From the NCBI GenBank assembly GCA_045106535.1, contig JBGCEU010000024.1, forward strand, positions 1,438-65,437: a DNA stretch of 64,000 nucleotides, in the 5' to 3' direction. Both the position numbers and the translations under genes were made by a program. Below, one piece after another: positions 13,900-25,563 of this stretch (positions are counted from its first letter, which is position 1; each line of letters opens with the position of its first letter). Below the pieces are notes generated by a model that was not told the DNA's origin, searched no databases, and worked only from the letters and a program-made list of their open reading frames with translations. The stretch comes from Akkermansiaceae bacterium (GTDB taxonomy: Bacteria; Verrucomicrobiota; Verrucomicrobiia; Verrucomicrobiales; Akkermansiaceae).

Positions 13900-14169
13900 G
13901 TGAATCAGCCTACCAAGAGCACCATAATCTCCGCCAATGGAAAATGCCTTTCCCAGCCACCCGAAGATTTAGATGAGCTGGAAATACTTATCGATGGAAA
14001 ACAGATGGCTAACGGGTGTCACGAAACATCCCTACTTGGTGGAGAGGGTGATCATTTACCTGAATCGATACAGTACCGCCTGATAGCATTCGAGCCACAA
14101 CAGGATGGCACCTGTGTGGCTCGGTATGTAAGGGTGAATGCAGACGAAAAACGATCAGCCAATGATTAG
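13900..14169 (+). CDS. Hypothetical protein (uncertain)
   Basis: 89-aa GTG ORF filling the gap between two minus-strand genes; no recognisable motif. Confidence 0.35.
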   Translation: MNQPTKSTIISANGKCLSQPPEDLDELEILIDGKQMANGCHETSLLGGEGDHLPESIQYRLIAFEPQQDGTCVARYVRVNADEKRSAND

Positions 14170-16211
14170 ACGACCGCTGCCGAAGCAGGGTGCTGATAGA
14201 CACTGTTGAGAATTTCACGGCATTCTGAGACACTGTATTTGGAAACTACTGTTGCAAGCACGGCATCGCCATACCCCTTACGGAGTAGGTTCATGTCCTC
14301 ACCCCAGTCACCACAATTATTTGACGCCATCACACGATGCAACCCTAGCAACTTAGAGAAAGAATCTAGATCTTTGGCACATGCCTGGTGGATCAATTTC
14401 AGGTAATCGGCGTTCGCCATATCACGAGCTACAACCACCGCTCTGGGAGTCTGACCCTCTGGGACATTTTGATATTTAGTGATTAGCTGCTCAAAGAACG
14501 GCGTACCGTCCTCGGGTGCGAGAGCAACTAGCTGGGTGCGCCCATCGAGTTCCTTAGGCTGCTCCGGCTCAGGCTGACTCTGGGTAACAAGCTTTTGAGC
14601 AGAAGTATGCACACCCGGCCTGTCTAGTGGGCTCGGAGTCGTATCAGCCACAGCTTTTGAAACAGCCTCTTCCGCTGCTGGTGCAGGCACCTGCTGAACT
14701 GGCACAGGCACAGGTGGAGGACTAGGAACCTCGGCAATAGCCGCATGCTGCTGCTCAGATTGCGCATCTTGCGTTTTGAATTCTTCGACTTCCACCACAG
14801 GCTCCGGCTGACGGCCCTCTGGCTCATTCTCATCAAGCAAATCAATGCCATCCTCTGTAATCTCTGATTTTTTCTTGCAGAAACGGCTCACCAAAGAAGA
14901 CAAAGCTCCTACGACACCATTTTCCCGAGGTTTCTCCTCCTCTTTAGCGGACGATTCATACTCTGCCATCGCATCAGCCACGTAATCATCGAGGTCATCA
15001 CCTATTGGCTGAGCAGCATCTATCTGGAAAACATTATCAGGCTCTTCGGTATCAACTTTCTCTGCGATTGCTCTGATATCCTCTGCATCCACAGTCTCAA
15101 ATGACTCGATCACCTCGTCTTTGTGCTCATGGGCATCATCATAGCTTTTGAAAAAAGCAGGCTGGGCAACAGCGGATGTCTCTTCCTTAGGCACCTCAGC
15201 AGCGAATACCTCACGAGCCGTGGATTCAGTGACTGCTGCAGTCTCAACTTTAAGTTCTGGAAGTGATTCGGCTTGGGGCGGTTCAATAACTTCGTTGTTA
15301 ACTACTTTTTCGACCTTGGTTTCTATCGCCTGCTCAACCTCTGCAATCTTGCTTAATTCTTCAAAAGTGTCCGTTGTATCGTCCTGACCACTGAGATCAT
15401 TCTCAGCTAATTTAGCCTCAGCTTTTTTATTAGGATCAAATGTTGCCCTACCCTCCTGCACTTTCCATGTCGGGAGTTCACGCTTGGGACCCTCCTGAGA
15501 TACAGGTTCTGGTTCGGACTCTTCAACCGTCTTGGTAGCAGTTTCTGTGTTTGTCTCTGCTTCAGGCTCGTCCTTGAACTCGGGCTTCGTCTCTGATTTT
15601 TTAGTATTAGCCTTAGTTTCCTGCTTATTCACTTGTGACATGAGAGCACGAATCGGCACCGGCTGAGTCAGTCCGTTTAGTAACTCCGCGTGGACATCTT
15701 CCGGCTGATCGTCGTTTTCATTCTCCTCATCCATCTGCGGTCCATCCCACGGGAAATCCTCTCCCATTACCTCATCCACCCATGGAAGCGATTCGACATC
15801 GGCATTCAACAGAGAAATTTCAAACCGCTCATCAATGAGGCTAGCATCAAGAGCCAGAGCAGCTCCGTAGCACCGAATCGCCTGCAGGGGCATATCCGAT
15901 TTCACGAAGAGTTTAGCCAACAATAGGTTTTCTTCTGGACTGCCGAGATTTTTTTCGATCACGGTATTGATGAGCCTCATCGCCCGTGTTGGTTGACCTT
16001 TAGCTACGATTTTTGTTGAAAAAACTATGTCCTCACCCGTCGGTGGAATTTCAGGAGCACTCCAGATCATTTGCGAGGCATCGCGATAGTAGCGAGCATC
16101 GAATAACACTTTAGCGACTTTTTTACGCATCGCCCAGTCATCGGGTGCCTGATCAACTAGCTTAATCAGAAGCTCATGGGCGCCGTCTAGCCCAGTTAGT
16201 GTACTTGTCAT
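14166..16211 (-). CDS. Hypothetical protein: N-terminal TPR-like helices, long acidic low-complexity linker, C-terminal globular region
   Basis: 681-aa ORF with an E/P/A/D-rich centre; TTGACA-N18-CATACT promoter-like sequence upstream. Confidence 0.8.
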   Translation of the reverse strand: MTSTLTGLDGAHELLIKLVDQAPDDWAMRKKVAKVLFDARYYRDASQMIWSAPEIPPTGEDIVFSTKIVAKGQPTRAMRLINTVIEKNLGSPEENLLLAKLFVKSDMPLQAIRCYGAALALDASLIDERFEISLLNADVESLPWVDEVMGEDFPWDGPQMDEENENDDQPEDVHAELLNGLTQPVPIRALMSQVNKQETKANTKKSETKPEFKDEPEAETNTETATKTVEESEPEPVSQEGPKRELPTWKVQEGRATFDPNKKAEAKLAENDLSGQDDTTDTFEELSKIAEVEQAIETKVEKVVNNEVIEPPQAESLPELKVETAAVTESTAREVFAAEVPKEETSAVAQPAFFKSYDDAHEHKDEVIESFETVDAEDIRAIAEKVDTEEPDNVFQIDAAQPIGDDLDDYVADAMAEYESSAKEEEKPRENGVVGALSSLVSRFCKKKSEITEDGIDLLDENEPEGRQPEPVVEVEEFKTQDAQSEQQHAAIAEVPSPPPVPVPVQQVPAPAAEEAVSKAVADTTPSPLDRPGVHTSAQKLVTQSQPEPEQPKELDGRTQLVALAPEDGTPFFEQLITKYQNVPEGQTPRAVVVARDMANADYLKLIHQACAKDLDSFSKLLGLHRVMASNNCGDWGEDMNLLRKGYGDAVLATVVSKYSVSECREILNSVYQHPASAAVV

Positions 16212-16238
16212 AATGTGTAAGGGTGATAGTGATGCCGA

Positions 16239-19709: not shown

Positions 19710-19852
19710 AAAAAGGCCCCGGGAGCTTGGAGGCATCCCGGGGCATTTGGATATTTCAGTTCCTTACACGCTGATGTTTGGAAATCTGACAACTGCAACT
19801 GTTGTGTTCACCCTTAGTTTGTGTGATTGAACCCCGAAGATTACGGCGTTCA
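19710..19852 (-). ncRNA. Candidate sRNA A (ECF-promoter, GGGUGAA family)
   Basis: Promoter at 19858-19888, 5' hairpin at 19828-19852, GGGTGAAC at 19806-19813, GCAGTTGTCAG at 19786-19796 and terminator at 19711-19745, all matching unit B. Confidence 0.6.
19711..19745 (-). terminator. Intrinsic terminator of candidate sRNA A
   Basis: Minus strand GCCCCGGGA-TGCCTCCAAGC-TCCCGGGGC-CTTTT. Confidence 0.8.
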
Positions 19853-19857
19853 GGATA

Positions 19858-19888
19858 CATAGACCCCCCACTTTAGTATCCGTTCAAA
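19858..19888 (-). promoter_or_regulatory. ECF-type promoter (copy A)
   Basis: Minus strand TTTGAAC-G-gatactaaagtgggg-GGTCTATG; same spacing as the copies at 23144 and 23462. Confidence 0.75.
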
Positions 19889-23143: not shown

Positions 23144-23174
23144 TTTGAACGTCTATGAACATTGACGGTCTATG
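23144..23174 (+). promoter_or_regulatory. ECF-type promoter (copy B)
   Basis: TTTGAAC-G-tctatgaacattgac-GGTCTATG. Confidence 0.75.
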
Positions 23175-23180
23175 TTTTCT

Positions 23181-23380
23181 GAATGACGCGAGTTGTGTCG
23201 CATCATTCGGGTGAACTAAAGCAGTTGTCAGCTTCTCGCGAAGTGATGTTGTCAGCGTCACTGAGCAAAACAATCAGCCGGACTAGGTTCCCTCCCAAAG
23301 TAACCCCCTCCAGCCTACGATTAAACACCAGGAAGTTGATTCAAAAAGCCCCAGGAGTCCTCCAACTCCTGGGGCTTTTA
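23181..23380 (+). ncRNA. Candidate sRNA B
   Basis: 5' hairpin at 23181-23208, GGGTGAAC at 23209-23216, GCAGTTGTCAG at 23221-23231, C-rich CCTCC motifs, terminator at 23348-23380. Confidence 0.62.
23343..23380 (+). terminator. Intrinsic (possibly bidirectional) terminator of candidate sRNA B
   Basis: AAAAA-GCCCCAGGAGT-CCTCCA-ACTCCTGGGGC-TTTT. Confidence 0.85.
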
Positions 23381-23461
23381 CGTTTTTACAGCTCTCGTTT
23401 CAGTGCAGAATCCCTTTAGATTCATTGATTTTCTCACAAATCGAAAAAAAACACGAAAAAC

Positions 23462-23492
23462 TTTGAACATACTCTCGAGTCGAGGGTCTATG
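23462..23492 (+). promoter_or_regulatory. ECF-type promoter (copy C)
   Basis: TTTGAAC-A-tactctcgagtcgag-GGTCTATG. Confidence 0.75.
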
Positions 23493-23495
23493 GCT

Positions 23496-23652
23496 AACGT
23501 GGGACGCAATGCGCACCACATTTCATGTAAGGGTGAAATCATAGTTTCATGCTCTAGCCCGAGTTCAAAGAGTCCCCTCTCGAGAACACAAGGCAGAGTA
23601 AGATTCAAAAATCGGCTCCAAGGAGATTCCTGTCTCTCCTTGGGGTTTTTTT
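23496..23652 (+). ncRNA. Candidate sRNA C
   Basis: 5' hairpin GTGG..CGC-AAT-GCG..CCAC, AAGGGTGAA at 23529-23537, terminator at 23615-23652. Confidence 0.58.
23615..23652 (+). terminator. Intrinsic terminator of candidate sRNA C
   Basis: CCAAGGAGA (23618-23626) pairs with TCTCCTTGG (23635-23643), followed by GG and a run of 7 T. Confidence 0.85.
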
Positions 23653-23746
23653 GTATCCAGATATCAGATGATGAGGTCGTCATAGGGCTGATTACTGCCA
23701 CTAGGCGTGAAACGATCATTTTTGCCTGAAATACTAGGCTTTAGGG

Positions 23747-23775: not shown

Positions 23776-23826
23776 CCCGCGCCTGTCCGCATCGCCGTGG
23801 CAGCAAACCATACCCATTTTTCTATC

Positions 23827-25563
23827 ATGATTGAAAGCATGCGCAAATACACTGGTCTTATGATCGTCGTTTTCATCCTGCTCGGTGCAGGGTTCCTATT
23901 CACTATGAACGACATCGGCACCGGTAGTGGCTCGGGTGGTGGAAGTGGCCCAGCTGTTCTTGAAGTGTACGGCCAGTCGATTGACGAGCAGGAGTATTAC
24001 CGCCGAGGTGATCGCACCTTGCAGCTTGCAAGCGAACTCGGATTACATAACTACGTTAACTTCCTGATCATTCCAGATATTCAGCAGCTAATGCAAGCGA
24101 ATCAGCTCATGCGTATGGGATATCCCAATTATTATGTCACAATGAGCCGTAACATCGGCCAGCAAGATCTTAACCGGTTCATTGCTAACCGCATGACCTT
24201 GCAACGCTCAATGGGAGAAATGGGTCTCTACGCGAGCGAGGAAGAAGTGACCGATTTCCTCAAAACATCTCCGCGTTTTGCTCCGACTGGCCAGTACGAT
24301 GCTGGCGAGTATGCATCATTTGTCGACAAACGTCTTGGTCGCCTCGGAATGACTGAAAAACACCTTCGTGAGGTTGTTCGCGAAAGCCTCTGCCTTAGCA
24401 AGCTCATTCAACTCGTTGGATCAGGTCTGACAGCCCCTCGCTCGTCTGTGAAGGATCAATTGGAAGCGAGAAGCCAAACTGTAACCCTCGCTCGTGTGGT
24501 GTTGAATCGTGACGATTTTGTAGAAAAAGAAGACCCGACTGAGGAAGAAATCAAAACCTACTGGGAAGCACATAAAGACGCTTACAAAACCGAAGAGCAA
24601 CGCCGCATTGCATACATCCTCCTTGACGTTCCCAAAGACGAAACCAAGGATGACAAAAAAGATGACAAGGCTGCTGAGGGCACCGTTGAGAGCGATGCTG
24701 AAAAAGATCGTAAGGCTGCCGAAGATGCAGCGAAAAAAACTGCTGAAGAAGAAAAGAAGAAAGCTCGCACTGCGGTAATGCGCAAAATCGAAGCTGTATC
24801 TGACTCCATTATTCAGAAGATCAACGACAAACAAGAGCTCAAGCTTGAGGAAATTGTAAAACAACACGGAGAAGCGTTAGTCAGAACTGAGCTGTTCACT
24901 CGTTCCGCTCCGCCAGAAAAACTCAAAGGGCTAGTCATGAGAGGTGGCACTTCACGAGGCAAAAGTCTGACTGAAGAAATCTTCACCATGCCCATGACCT
25001 CAGACAAGTATGACCTTGTTTCCAAACCCCTGCCCGTCGGTGAAAACGCTTGGATTATTTTCCGGCTTGATGAAGTTATCGAGCCTGTGCTGCTTGACTA
25101 CACAGCGGCACGCGGCAAGGCACGCGCTAATCTCATTGGAGAAAATGCCACCGAGAAAGTGAAAGCTGCTGCTGACGAAGCCAGAGAAAAAATTTCCGCT
25201 GCTTTAGTAGAGGGTAAGAGTTTTGATGATGCCGCCAAAGAGCTTGCTCTAACACCAGTACAGGTTGGCCCTTACTCCTTTGACGGCATACCTCCAAAAA
25301 ACGAGCCTAGCCATCGCCAGCTGCACCAAACAGCTCAAGGCCTGAACCCCGGACAAGTATCAGAGGCAATCCACGAGAACGATCGTTCTGTTATTATTTT
25401 TGTAGAAAAGCGTGAAATCGAAGATACAGAAGAAAACAAGAATAGAATCGACTCCATGGTAACTGGCTCAAAGGGAGAATTCATGGTTCGTACATTTTTG
25501 AACTGGCGTAACACCCAGTTCAACGAAGCCAAACTCAGCGGACCTTTCACTGAAAAGAAATAG
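23827..25563 (+). CDS. SurA N-terminal domain / PpiD-like periplasmic chaperone
   Basis: MIESMRKYTGLMIVVFILL membrane anchor, SEEEV..FL, PTEEEIKTYWEAHKDAYKTEEQRRIAYI; PpiD-like layout. Confidence 0.75.
   Translation: MIESMRKYTGLMIVVFILLGAGFLFTMNDIGTGSGSGGGSGPAVLEVYGQSIDEQEYYRRGDRTLQLASELGLHNYVNFLIIPDIQQLMQANQLMRMGYPNYYVTMSRNIGQQDLNRFIANRMTLQRSMGEMGLYASEEEVTDFLKTSPRFAPTGQYDAGEYASFVDKRLGRLGMTEKHLREVVRESLCLSKLIQLVGSGLTAPRSSVKDQLEARSQTVTLARVVLNRDDFVEKEDPTEEEIKTYWEAHKDAYKTEEQRRIAYILLDVPKDETKDDKKDDKAAEGTVESDAEKDRKAAEDAAKKTAEEEKKKARTAVMRKIEAVSDSIIQKINDKQELKLEEIVKQHGEALVRTELFTRSAPPEKLKGLVMRGGTSRGKSLTEEIFTMPMTSDKYDLVSKPLPVGENAWIIFRLDEVIEPVLLDYTAARGKARANLIGENATEKVKAAADEAREKISAALVEGKSFDDAAKELALTPVQVGPYSFDGIPPKNEPSHRQLHQTAQGLNPGQVSEAIHENDRSVIIFVEKREIEDTEENKNRIDSMVTGSKGEFMVRTFLNWRNTQFNEAKLSGPFTEKK

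What the first reader, a model, noticed from the sequence alone, without database searches (positions are those of the whole stretch)
19711..19813. Units A and B are homologous down to their terminators and display anti-Shine-Dalgarno CCUCC loops
Seen: A (minus) reads GGGTGAAC-acaacagtt-GCAGTTGTCAG..TCAGCGT..GCCCCGGGA-TGCCTCCAAGC-TCCCGGGGC. B reads GGGTGAAC-taaa-GCAGTTGTCAG..TCAGCGT..GCCCCAGGAGT-CCTCCA-ACTCCTGGGGC. The terminator stems show a compensatory change (G-C vs A-T) and keep CCTCCAA in the loop. They lie 3.4 kb apart on opposite strands. Inference: duplicated RNA genes under structural selection, with loop CCUCC available for SD pairing.
Basis: partly seen in the sequence, partly recalled or inferred. 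Interest (0 to 1): 0.62.

Follow-up and report, generated by a model that had tools for sequence, protein, structure and literature searches.

The report
ECF-driven small RNA gene family
Units A and B are two of four copies of a conserved, structured small-RNA gene in a marine verrucomicrobium, each with a stress-sigma-type promoter and its own terminator; the family is not in Rfam or the searched literature, but the proposed 'anti-Shine-Dalgarno loop' function is not supported because this lineage hardly uses Shine-Dalgarno sites.

Summary
Unit A (window about 19887 to 19710, minus strand) and unit B (23145-23379, plus strand) are homologous from promoter to terminator.

- **Copies:** They belong to a four-copy family here, with unit C at 23463-23655 and unit D on another contig.
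- **Distribution:** The family occurs in 39 of 151 Akkermansiaceae genomes and 77 metagenome contigs. It has no Rfam match.
- **Promoter:** Every copy has an ECF-sigma-type promoter, T[TC]GAAC-N16-nGTC.
- **Architecture:** A 5' stem-loop with covariation, a near-invariant box (CA)UGUAAGGGUGAAC, a middle helix (GUUGUCAGCUUC/GAGGUUGAU), and an intrinsic terminator with three compensatory pairs.
- **Likely sigma:** One ECF gene carries the same promoter type and co-occurs with the RNA (37/39 versus 61/112 genomes).

These are duplicated RNA genes under structural selection. The CCUCCAA terminator loop is conserved, but only in the A and B lineages of this genus.

Shine-Dalgarno (SD) motifs are depleted upstream of start codons here and in Verrucomicrobiales generally. 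UUGGAGG is not enriched at start sites.

The better seed candidate is GUAAGGGUG. Its complement CACCCUUAC(A) lies just upstream of start codons of a secretin gene, several genes for proteins with signal-peptide-like N-termini, and the ECF sigma gene itself. That support holds for units C and D, not for A and B. No expression data could be obtained.

The parts
19860..19887 (-). Unit A promoter: -35 TTGAAC (19887-19882), 16-nt spacer, -10 GGTCTA (19865-19860). It is of ECF-sigma type.
   Evidence: TGAAC-N15-17-GGTCTA occurs only three times in the 3.8-Mb genome (units A, B and C), and the reversed control gives none. The promoter is conserved in all orthologues and in 57 of 66 metagenome copies, with a 16-nt spacer in 56 of those 57.
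19828..19852 (-). Unit A 5' stem-loop (UGAACgCCG / CGGgGUUCA). The predicted transcription start lies near 19853.
   Evidence: Fold. The homologous helix covaries across the family.
19806..19817 (-). Unit A version (CUAAGGGUGAAC) of the family's conserved box (CA)UGUAAGGGUGAAC.
   Evidence: The box is near-invariant in other genera and in 77 metagenome contigs.
19757..19805 (-). Unit A middle domain. It holds a small hairpin ACAAC/GUUGU, GCAGUUGUCAG (the 5' arm), TCAGCGUG, and GGAACUG (the 3' arm).
   Evidence: Fold. The homologous helix is 88% paired across 20 family members against 26-54% when slid, with little covariation.
19710..19744 (-). Unit A intrinsic terminator, with CCUCC in the loop at 19733-19729 and a U tract. 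It lies 20 nt past the stop of the convergent SSF transporter gene, so it may terminate both.
23145..23172 (+). Unit B promoter: -35 TTGAAC (23145-23150), 16-nt spacer, -10 GGTCTA (23167-23172).
23178..23216 (+). Unit B 5' stem-loop (GAAUGAcGCGA / UCGCaUCAUUC), followed by its degenerate box UUCGGGUGAAC.
   Evidence: Fold. Compensatory changes relative to other copies are shown.
23221..23340 (+). Unit B middle domain. The helix arms are GUCAGCUUCU (23227-23236) and GGAAGUUGAU (23331-23340). They enclose a B-specific insertion with the hairpin GUGAUG-UUGUCAG-CGUCAC (23243-23261) and two C-rich boxes (23288-23299 and 23304-23313).
   Evidence: The insertion varies in length among B orthologues, whose total unit length runs from 180 to 300 nt.
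23344..23379 (+). Unit B intrinsic terminator, with loop CCUCCA (CCUCC at 23359-23363). Its sequence would allow termination in both directions.
23463..23655 (+). Unit C, a third paralogue in tandem after B and directly upstream of the PpiD/SurA-like gene. It has the same promoter (23463-23490), the box CAUGUAAGGGUGAA (about 23523-23538) presented in a hairpin loop, and a terminator at 23614-23647 whose loop lacks CCUCC.
16216..16226 (-). Candidate target site UCACCCUUACA at -15..-5 of the 681-aa gene (14166-16211, minus strand). It is complementary to the C/D-type box.
   Evidence: This is an inference and was not tested.
23797..25563 (+). PpiD/SurA-like periplasmic chaperone gene downstream of units B and C. 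The same RNA-then-ppiD order is found in other genera.

Best explanation
Units A and B are paralogous genes for a structured small RNA of about 145 nt (A) and 200 nt (B). They belong to a family with four copies in this genome (A, B, C, D) and one to five or more copies in many Akkermansiaceae.

**Transcription.** Each gene is transcribed from an ECF-sigma-type promoter, T[TC]GAAC-N16-nGTC. The most likely sigma factor is the ECF encoded at genome contig C162:3224-2598. That gene sits in an operon with a small membrane protein and a PDZ protein. Each RNA gene ends at its own intrinsic terminator.

**Architecture.** The RNA has four modules:
- a 5' stem-loop;
- a conserved box, (CA)UGUAAGGGUGAAC, predicted unpaired in the canonical form and placed in a hairpin loop in C and D;
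- a middle helix whose arms are the conserved words GUUGUCAGCUUC and GAGGUUGAU;
- a terminator.

**Most likely function.** The family acts in trans as a stress-induced base-pairing regulator, working like the sigma-E-dependent sRNAs MicA, RybB and MicL. The GUAAGGGUG box would pair with CACCCUUAC motifs that lie just upstream of start codons in mRNAs lacking Shine-Dalgarno (SD) sites. Candidate targets are a secretin, several proteins with signal-peptide-like N-termini, and the ECF sigma's own leader, which would give feedback. This happens without Hfq.

**Units A and B specifically.** They are derived copies. Their box is altered, and both acquired a terminator loop CCUCCAA. B also carries extra C-rich boxes. 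The role of these features is unknown, and general SD pairing is unlikely.

**What is shown and what is inferred.**
- Shown: homology, promoter conservation, conserved structure, taxonomic distribution, and co-occurrence with the ECF.
- Inferred: transcription, dependence on the sigma factor, action in trans, and the identity of the targets.
For: **Gene family and structure**
- The strict promoter pattern occurs only at units A, B and C in the whole genome. Unit D has TCGAAC-N17-TGTCTATGT.
- A covariance model finds A at 136 bits, D at 85 bits and B at 40 bits. It also hits 39 of 151 family genomes in 8 of 20 genera.
- 77 metagenome contigs carry the exact 26-nt box. Of 66 unique copies, 57 have T[TC]GAAC-N16-nGTC 34-37 nt upstream.
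- The 5' stem-loop covaries and so does the terminator. The middle helix is 88% paired. Fold z-scores range from -3.3 to -6.8.
- No Rfam family matches.
- Flanking genes lie in mixed orientation, and unit A faces a convergent gene.

**Link to the ECF sigma**
- The C162 ECF has TTTGAAC-N17-GTCTG upstream. Its orthologues in other genera keep aTTGAAC-N17-tGTCt.
- The ECF is present in 37 of 39 RNA-positive genomes against 61 of 112 RNA-negative ones (p = 1.3e-6). Within the genus the split is 11/11 against 0/5 (p = 2.3e-4).
- Of 15 non-coding promoter-motif hits in the genome, 4 are the RNA units and 1 is the ECF gene.

**Seed and targets**
- CACCCTTACA occurs 10 times in the genome. Two are the antisense of units C and D. 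By inspection of the sequence context, 6 of the other 8 lie on the sense strand 4-36 nt upstream of an ATG, and one lies in codons near the start of a lipoprotein gene. My automated start-region filter flags 5 of them.
- CACCCTTA lies in start regions in 16 of 71 cases, against 8.5% for same-composition permutations (p = 3e-4).
- This was replicated in species G014, where 4 of 4 non-self sites are at start regions.
- The secretin site is exact at -15..-5 in four RNA-positive species, although the flanks have diverged.
- The ECF leader keeps CCCUUAC (or, in two species, the CCUUAC core) in 8 of 10 other species of the genus, besides this genome's own exact site.
- The best predicted duplex for unit C is with the ECF leader, at -23.3 kcal/mol.

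**Chaperone**
- No Hfq gene was found.
Against:
- **Modest target statistics.** Duplex counts for the C and D seeds (14-15) exceed the shuffle mean (4.6-6.7) but not the shuffle maximum (16). The seeds of A and B themselves show no excess at all.
- **Weak replication outside the genus.** TIR-located sites were 1 of 3 in G107 and 0 of 2 in G099. The secretin site is missing in three RNA-positive species.
- **An alternative reading of the motif.** CACCCUUA could be a leader or translation element unrelated to the RNA.
- **The ECF is more widespread than the detectable RNA.** It occurs in 98 of 151 genomes, and its promoter spacer is 17 nt rather than 16. This genome has 27 sigma-70-family genes, most of ECF size, so another could be the cognate one.
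- **Synteny with ppiD.** In several genera the canonical copy sits directly upstream of ppiD and in the same orientation, which also fits a leader role.
- **The CCUCCAA loop is unexplained.** Its conservation has no account under this model.
Confidence: 0.6

Rival explanations
1. One reading: the CCUCC terminator loops, and B's C-rich boxes, pair with Shine-Dalgarno sequences of mRNAs to block ribosome binding, as the C-rich sRNAs RsaE/RoxS do.
For: - CCUCCAA is nearly invariant in the loops of 13 of 16 A/B orthologues while the stem covaries.
- B-type copies carry one or two more CC(U)CCAAA boxes.
- The loop is predicted to be unpaired.
Against: - SD motifs are depleted upstream of start codons here, and Verrucomicrobiales globally lack SD sequences (PMC10798248).
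- UUGGAGG, UUUGGGG and related words are not enriched in start regions.
- Duplex scans with the loops and the C-rich boxes give no more strong hits than shuffles.
- The loop is absent from units C and D and from every copy in other genera.
- The loop reads CCUCCAA, whereas the 16S tail reads CCUCCUU (the latter from established knowledge).
Confidence: 0.07
2. The RNA is mainly a cis-acting 5' leader or attenuator. The ECF promoter drives the PpiD/SurA-like chaperone gene, and the structured RNA with its terminator controls read-through. Under this reading B and C are leader duplicates, and A and D are dispersed relics.
For: - In the window, B and C lie upstream of the ppiD-like gene and in the same orientation.
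Against: - Unit A faces a convergent gene, and unit D precedes an unrelated protease gene.
- About half of the copies have a downstream gene on the opposite strand.
- A and D are conserved as orthologues with intact promoter and box, so they are not relics.
- No alternative antiterminator pairing was seen.
- G107 has three tandem copies.
Confidence: 0.12
3. The RNA acts by binding or sequestering a protein rather than by base pairing. The invariant box and the conserved helix arms would be a protein recognition site.
For: - A 34-nt block is near-invariant across genera, which is more than a seed usually needs.
- Both arms of the middle helix are conserved in sequence, with little covariation.
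- The gene is multi-copy.
Against: - No candidate partner protein was identified.
- There are no repeated GGA-type motifs.
- The complement of the box is enriched at start regions.
Confidence: 0.1
4. The units encode small proteins, for example the 78-aa ORF at 23183-23419 that overlaps B.
For: Open frames run through B here and through its orthologue in G029. This comes from my reading of the sequences.
Against: - Neither the 78-aa ORF on B nor the 113-aa antisense ORF has a Pfam match.
- The conserved words fall in different frames in different orthologues. The spacing from GGGTGAAC to GCAGTTGTCAG is 9, 4, 5, 7 or 3 nt.
- Indels are not multiples of three.
- The frames run through the terminators.
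- There is covariation in RNA helices.
Confidence: 0.02
5. The shared hairpin is just a repeated terminator or REP-like element, and the rest of the similarity is chance.
For: Both hairpins sit at the ends of convergent genes and could terminate them as well.
Against: - Only units A and B carry this hairpin in the genome.
- The similarity extends about 150 nt upstream to a shared promoter.
- Orthologues exist across species.
Confidence: 0.02

Closest known systems
Sigma-E (RpoE)-dependent sRNAs of Enterobacteria and Vibrio: MicA, RybB, MicL, VrrA, MicV
   Same: - An ECF-type promoter drives a short stand-alone RNA that ends in an intrinsic terminator.
- A conserved unpaired 5'-proximal region is complementary to translation start regions of envelope-protein mRNAs. 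The candidate here is a secretin.
- The RNAs would form a homeostatic arm of an envelope-stress sigma regulon that also contains periplasmic chaperone and protease genes. Here these are a PDZ protein in the sigma operon and a ppiD-like gene next to the RNA.
   Different: - There is no sequence or Rfam relationship.
- No Hfq gene is present.
- The host lacks SD-based initiation.
- There are four or more sibling copies, and a possible direct site in the sigma gene's own leader.
- None of the regulation has been tested.
FoxI/FoxJ, sigma-E-dependent sRNAs of Fusobacterium nucleatum (PMC11005410, seen; title and abstract only)
   Same: Sigma-E-type sRNAs found in a phylum distant from the Proteobacteria.
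   Different: The sequences are unrelated. FoxI and FoxJ are supported by experiment, whereas this family is supported only by comparative sequence analysis.
C-rich anti-SD sRNAs of Firmicutes (RsaE/RoxS, and the UCCC loops of RNAIII and the Rsa RNAs). This comparison rests on my own knowledge.
   Same: C-rich motifs are exposed in hairpin loops and repeated within one RNA, as in the B copies.
   Different: - The G-rich SD targets those RNAs rely on are depleted in this lineage.
- The motif is lineage-specific rather than the conserved core of the family.
- There is no Rfam match.
Multi-copy sibling sRNAs (Qrr1-5, PrrF1/F2, OmrA/B). This comparison rests on my own knowledge; the PrrF tandem locus appears.
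   Same: - Several paralogues share a promoter type and a conserved core but have divergent remainders.
- Some copies are in tandem: B and C here, and three copies within 2.7 kb in G107.
   Different: The regulators are of a different class, and the sequences are unrelated.

Membership tests
ECF/sigma-E-dependent trans-acting sRNAs (functional class) | A promoter with ECF architecture (-35 GAAC, spacer 16-17, -10 GTC) directly upstream of the RNA | tested here: met
   In one search, 57 of 66 metagenome copies have it, with a 16-nt spacer in 56.
ECF/sigma-E-dependent trans-acting sRNAs (functional class) | Transcription depends on the ECF sigma | not testable with these tools
   Only indirect support is available: a similar autoregulatory-type promoter at the C162 ECF gene and co-occurrence with the RNA.
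ECF/sigma-E-dependent trans-acting sRNAs (functional class) | A discrete stand-alone transcript | not testable with these tools
At the sequence level there is a promoter plus a terminator, and neighbouring genes lie in mixed orientation.
ECF/sigma-E-dependent trans-acting sRNAs (functional class) | A conserved seed complementary to start regions of envelope-protein mRNAs | tested here: inconclusive
   The complement of the box is enriched at start regions (p = 3e-4). This was replicated in G014, and the secretin site is conserved in four species. However, the duplex excess lies within the shuffle range, and the seeds of A and B show none.
ECF/sigma-E-dependent trans-acting sRNAs (functional class) | Hfq dependence, as in the enterobacterial members | tested here: not met
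   No Hfq (PF17209) match in the 94.5%-complete genome.
Any described RNA family (Rfam 15, including MicA, RybB and RsaE) | A covariance-model match at or near the gathering score | tested here: not met
   Searches gave only terminator-like chance hits below the gathering scores.
C-rich anti-SD sRNAs (RsaE/RoxS type) | C-rich motifs exposed in loops | tested here: met
   CCUCC lies in the terminator loops of A and B, and B has C-rich boxes.
C-rich anti-SD sRNAs (RsaE/RoxS type) | Target mRNAs carry G-rich SD sites that the motifs can pair with | tested here: not met
   SD motifs are depleted (PMC10798248). The complements are not enriched, and duplex scans show no excess.
REP-like or repeated terminator elements | Many copies after unrelated genes, without the promoter and core | tested here: not met
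   Searches find only units A and B.
Cis-regulatory leader or attenuator of the ppiD-like gene | Always upstream of the regulated gene and in the same orientation | tested here: not met
   This holds for B and C and for some canonical copies. It does not hold for A, for D, or for about half of the loci.
Small-protein gene | A reading frame conserved among orthologues | tested here: not met
   The spacings between conserved words shift the frame, and there is no Pfam match.

The most novel reading that the evidence does not exclude
Verrucomicrobiales have globally abandoned Shine-Dalgarno initiation. In that setting, the CCUCCAA loops and CC(U)CCAAA boxes newly acquired by the A and B copies might act as mimics of the 16S anti-SD core. 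They would then selectively capture the handful of mRNAs that still carry strong SD-like sites (for example inside the ribosomal-protein operon) or other rare G-rich sites. This would add a second, lineage-specific regulon to an older ECF-driven sRNA whose ancestral seed is GUAAGGGUG. The evidence gives no positive support. There is no enrichment of the complement, but a very small target set is not excluded.
Probability: 0.05. Interest if true: 0.8.

Novelty: new member of a known kind. Interest (0 to 1): 0.52.

Why it matters
I found no described regulatory RNAs for Verrucomicrobia in Rfam or in the literature I searched. This finding gives a concrete, widely distributed candidate:
- It occurs in 8 of 20 sampled Akkermansiaceae genera.
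- It occurs on 77 metagenome contigs whose record names include marine samples; I did not otherwise check their sample origins.
- It has a defined promoter, a defined structure, a probable sigma factor and a short list of testable targets.

If the mechanism holds, it would show the sigma-E/sRNA envelope-homeostasis logic arising independently in a phylum that has neither Hfq nor SD-led translation. It would also bear on a separate question: how a small RNA blocks initiation on mRNAs that lack SD sites.

It also offers a practical annotation rule. The pattern T[TC]GAAC-N16-nGTC followed by CAUGUAAGGGUGAAC marks these genes in assembled genomes, where the region is otherwise called as spurious ORFs.

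Tried and rejected
- **Rfam.** Gathering and E-value scans of the window and of five canonical loci found nothing but terminator look-alikes.
- **purD synteny.** Of 80 purD loci from named genomes, only one (L018) has a unit next to purD. The purD position of unit B is therefore not ancestral.
- **GCAGUUGUCAG as a seed.** Its complement shows no pattern near start codons. It turned out to be the 5' arm of the middle helix.
- **The in-window ECF/anti-sigma pair (2021-3942) as the cognate sigma.** Its upstream region has a different motif (TGAATC...GTATCA), so I rejected it in favour of the C162 ECF.
- **A hit on contig C19.** This 24-nt BLAST hit lacks the promoter, box and terminator of the units, so I treated it as chance.
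- **The anti-SD reading.** I tested it by SD usage, word enrichment and duplex scans, and all were negative.
- **Seeds of units A and B.** They show no excess of predicted start-region duplexes.
- **RNAalifold on mixed A/B/canonical 5' regions.** It gave no structure because MAFFT offset the A rows. I resolved this by naming the helix on sub-alignments.
- **Literature.** Three literature searches found no Verrucomicrobia or Akkermansia sRNA description.
Full report
**1. The observation**

- Unit A (minus strand) has GGGTGAAC at 19813-19806, GCAGTTGTCAG at 19796-19786 and TCAGCGT at 19774-19768. Its GC-rich hairpin spans 19744-19716, with CCTCC in the loop, followed by a T tract.
- Unit B (plus strand) has the same words at 23209-23216, 23221-23231 and 23253-23259. 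Its terminator lies at 23344-23379.

The short words alone are not significant, but the two units align colinearly over their full length at 68% mean column identity.

Both units share TTTGAAC-N16-GGTCTATGT and a 5' hairpin. TGAAC-N15-17-GGTCTA occurs only three times in the whole 3.8-Mb genome, at A, at B and at a third unit C (23463-23655). The reversed control gives zero. A fourth copy, unit D, lies on another contig (C54, about 17177-16999, minus strand).

**2. The organism and the family**

purD-linked loci place the window in the Verrucomicrobiota, family Akkermansiaceae, near Oceaniferula, Persicirhabdus and Rubritalea.
- BLAST finds separate orthologues of A and of B in other species of the same GTDB genus.
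- A covariance model built from A-type copies plus D finds the family in 39 of 151 genomes of the family, in 8 of 20 genera, at 1-4 copies per genome. In the home genome it scores A at 136 bits, D at 85 bits and B at 40 bits.
- The exact 26-nt box TGTAAGGGTGAAYAGCAGTTGTCAGC occurs on 77 metagenome contigs.
- The box was not found in about 130 genomes of about 45 other families of the class. It was also absent from one well-sampled genus of the same family.
- No Rfam family matches the window units or the canonical copies.
- Three literature searches found no description.

**3. Anatomy**

The canonical copy (other genera, and unit D here) has these parts in order:
- a promoter T[TC]GAAC-N16-nGTC;
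- a 5' stem-loop (UGAAAACCGC...GCAGUUUUCA);
- an unpaired, near-invariant stretch (CA)UGUAAGGGUGAACAGC;
- a middle helix formed by two conserved words, GUUGUCAGCUUC and GAGGUUGAUnnAC, around a variable tip;
- an intrinsic terminator.

Units A and B keep all four modules. B carries a long, length-variable insertion inside the middle helix, which includes two C-rich boxes. In units C and D the GUAAGG of the box is predicted to sit in a hexaloop.

Support for the structure:

| Element | Paired | Paired when slid | Compensatory pairs | Shuffles reaching observed |
|---|---|---|---|---|
| 5' stem-loop, 19 sequences | 86.9% | 39-47% | 7 of 12 | 0 of 500 |
| 5' stem-loop, 61 metagenome sequences | 85% | 41-49% | 7 | 0 of 500 |
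| Terminator, 16 A/B orthologues | 95% | 40-62% | 3 | not counted here |
| Middle helix, 20 sequences | 88% | 26-54% | few | not counted here |

- The middle helix covaries little because both arms are conserved in sequence.
- Folds are more stable than shuffles: z = -3.3 (A), -6.2 (B), -4.6 (C), -6.8 (D) and -5.5 (canonical).
- Protein coding is unlikely. The ORFs have no Pfam match, and the conserved words fall in different frames in different orthologues.

**4. Promoter and sigma factor**

Only GAAC and GTC are conserved, with a fixed 16-nt spacer. Of 66 unique metagenome copies, 57 have the motif, and 56 of those have a 16-nt spacer. The motif ends 34-37 nt before the box. From established knowledge of ECF promoters, this is the ECF pattern and not a sigma-70 -10 element.

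The genome has 27 sigma-70-family genes. Only one, at C162:3224-2598, has the same motif upstream (TTTGAAC-N17-GTCTG). Its orthologues in other genera keep aTTGAAC-N17-tGTCt. By Pfam it is an ordinary ECF, followed by a 130-aa membrane protein and a PDZ protein.

Co-occurrence is strong:
- Across the family, 37 of 39 RNA-positive genomes have the orthologue, against 61 of 112 RNA-negative genomes (p = 1.3e-6).
- Within the genus the split is 11 of 11 against 0 of 5 (p = 2.3e-4).

Genome-wide, the motif hits 15 non-coding sites. Four of these are the RNA units and one is the ECF gene. The ECF pair inside the window (2021-3942) has a different upstream motif.

The assignment is an inference, and I put it at about 0.55-0.6.

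**5. The anti-SD idea**

The loop CCUCCAA is nearly invariant in A and B orthologues while the stem covaries, so it is under some constraint. General SD pairing does not fit, for three reasons:
1. GGAG|GAGG occurs in 2.7% of genes at -18..-4, against 5-6% further upstream. This is depletion. A published survey found that Verrucomicrobiales globally lack SD sequences (PMC10798248).
2. UUGGAGG and related words are not enriched in start regions. Duplex scans with the loops or with B's C-rich boxes give no more strong hits than shuffles.
3. Units C and D, and all copies in other genera, have unrelated terminator loops.

The loop is a genus-level novelty of two paralogues and not the core of the family. 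What it does remains unexplained.

**6. A better seed candidate**

- CACCCTTACA occurs 10 times. Two are the antisense of units C and D. By inspection of the sequence context, 6 of the other 8 lie on the sense strand 4-36 nt upstream of an ATG. One more lies in the lipoprotein signal-peptide codons of a gene, and one lies just downstream of the 681-aa gene, with no long ORF after it. My automated start-region filter flags 5 of the 8.
- The sites before start codons belong to the 681-aa gene in the window, a secretin (PF00263), two other genes whose products have signal-peptide-like N-termini, one short or uncertain ORF, and the leader of the C162 ECF gene.
- The 8-mer CACCCTTA lies in start regions in 16 of 71 cases, against 8.5% for same-composition permutations (p = 3e-4). 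The antisense word is not enriched there.
- In another species (G014), 4 of 4 non-self sites are at start regions. In two other genera the counts are 1 of 3 and 0 of 2.
- The secretin site is exact at -15..-5 in four RNA-positive species, although the flanks have diverged. It is absent from three other RNA-positive species and from the RNA-negative species with a usable orthologue.
- The ECF leader keeps CCCUUAC, or in two species the CCUUAC core, in 8 of 10 other species of the genus.
- The best predicted duplex of unit C is with that ECF leader, at -23.3 kcal/mol. The C and D seeds give 14-15 strong duplexes against a shuffle mean of 4.6-6.7 and a shuffle maximum of 16. The seeds of A and B give no excess.

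This supports a MicA/RybB-like mechanism for the canonical box only moderately, at about 0.35-0.4. It says little about A and B, whose box has diverged (CUAAGGGUGAAC and UUCGGGUGAAC). No Hfq gene is present.

**7. Context and rivals**

In genera g28 and g25 the canonical copy sits between a divergent DUF255/yyaL gene and a co-oriented PpiD/SurA-like gene. In the window, B and C precede the ppiD-like gene. A leader or read-through role for ppiD is therefore a real rival for those copies. It cannot explain A (convergent neighbour), D or the mixed orientations elsewhere.

Protein sequestration, small-protein coding and a repeat element are treated under the rival explanations.

**8. Verdict**

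The feature is a new, widely distributed, probably ECF-dependent small-RNA family of Akkermansiaceae that works most like the sigma-E-dependent sRNAs. It is a new member of a known kind.

My confidence, by layer:
- conserved structured RNA gene family: about 0.9;
- ECF-type promoter: about 0.8;
- the C162 ECF as the cognate sigma: about 0.55;
- trans base-pairing through GUAAGGGUG: about 0.35-0.4;
- anti-SD function of the loops: about 0.07.

Noticed in passing
window 23463-23655 (+): Unit C is a third paralogue, in tandem after B and 150 nt upstream of the ppiD-like gene. It keeps CAUGUAAGGGUGAA in a predicted hexaloop hairpin but lacks the GCAGUUGUCAG helix arm and the CCUCC loop. By position it is probably the orthologue of the canonical copy that precedes ppiD in other genera.
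   Followed up: partly
genome contig C54:16999-17177 (-), outside the window: Unit D is the fourth copy and the closest to the canonical form. It lies between purB and a gene for a ClpP-fold protein with a signal-peptide-like N-terminus. Its terminator loop is GGGGUCCCCCCCAG.
   Followed up: partly
genome contig C162:1052-3360 (-), outside the window: This is the candidate cognate ECF operon: sigma (208 aa), a 130-aa membrane protein with no Pfam match, and a 298-aa PDZ protein. The leader also holds a sigma-70-like TTGACA-N17-TATGAT, which would start a second transcript almost exactly at CACCCUUACA.
   Followed up: partly
whole genome: SD motifs are depleted upstream of start codons. Instead, G-poor words such as CTAACA, AACTAA and TAACAA are 4-6 fold enriched at -25..-1. 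This may be a Kozak-like leader preference, as described for Bacteroidia.
   Followed up: no
window 23183-23419 (+) and 23378-23719 (-): The 78-aa and 113-aa ORFs that overlap units B and C have no Pfam match and are most likely spurious. Gene callers may annotate them.
   Followed up: partly
L175, L178, L181 (genome G107, C1:3309351-3312049): Three tandem copies of the RNA gene lie within 2.7 kb in a genus-g25 genome, plus two more copies elsewhere in that genome. Copy number therefore varies widely.
   Followed up: no
L097 (genome G007), B-type orthologue: The variable insertion of this B copy contains a direct duplication of a stretch of about 25 nt (CCGACTGGTAAATATATGTAG occurs twice). This shows that the insertion evolves by local duplication.
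   Followed up: no
conserved box in all canonical copies: The box contains AUGUAA, a start codon followed directly by a stop codon, 5' of an SD-like AAGGGUGA. I did not examine whether this minimal start-stop has any meaning.
   Followed up: no
genome contigs C51:8036(-), C231:1575(+), C228:1197(-), C48:7731(+): These are further non-coding hits of the ECF-type promoter motif, upstream of protein genes, two of which have signal-peptide-like N-termini. They are candidates for the protein-coding part of the regulon.
   Followed up: no
window 14127-14136 (-): A second site, UUCACCCUUACAU, is a 13-nt complement of the C/D box. It lies just downstream of the stop of the 681-aa gene, and no long ORF follows within 80 nt.
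   Followed up: no
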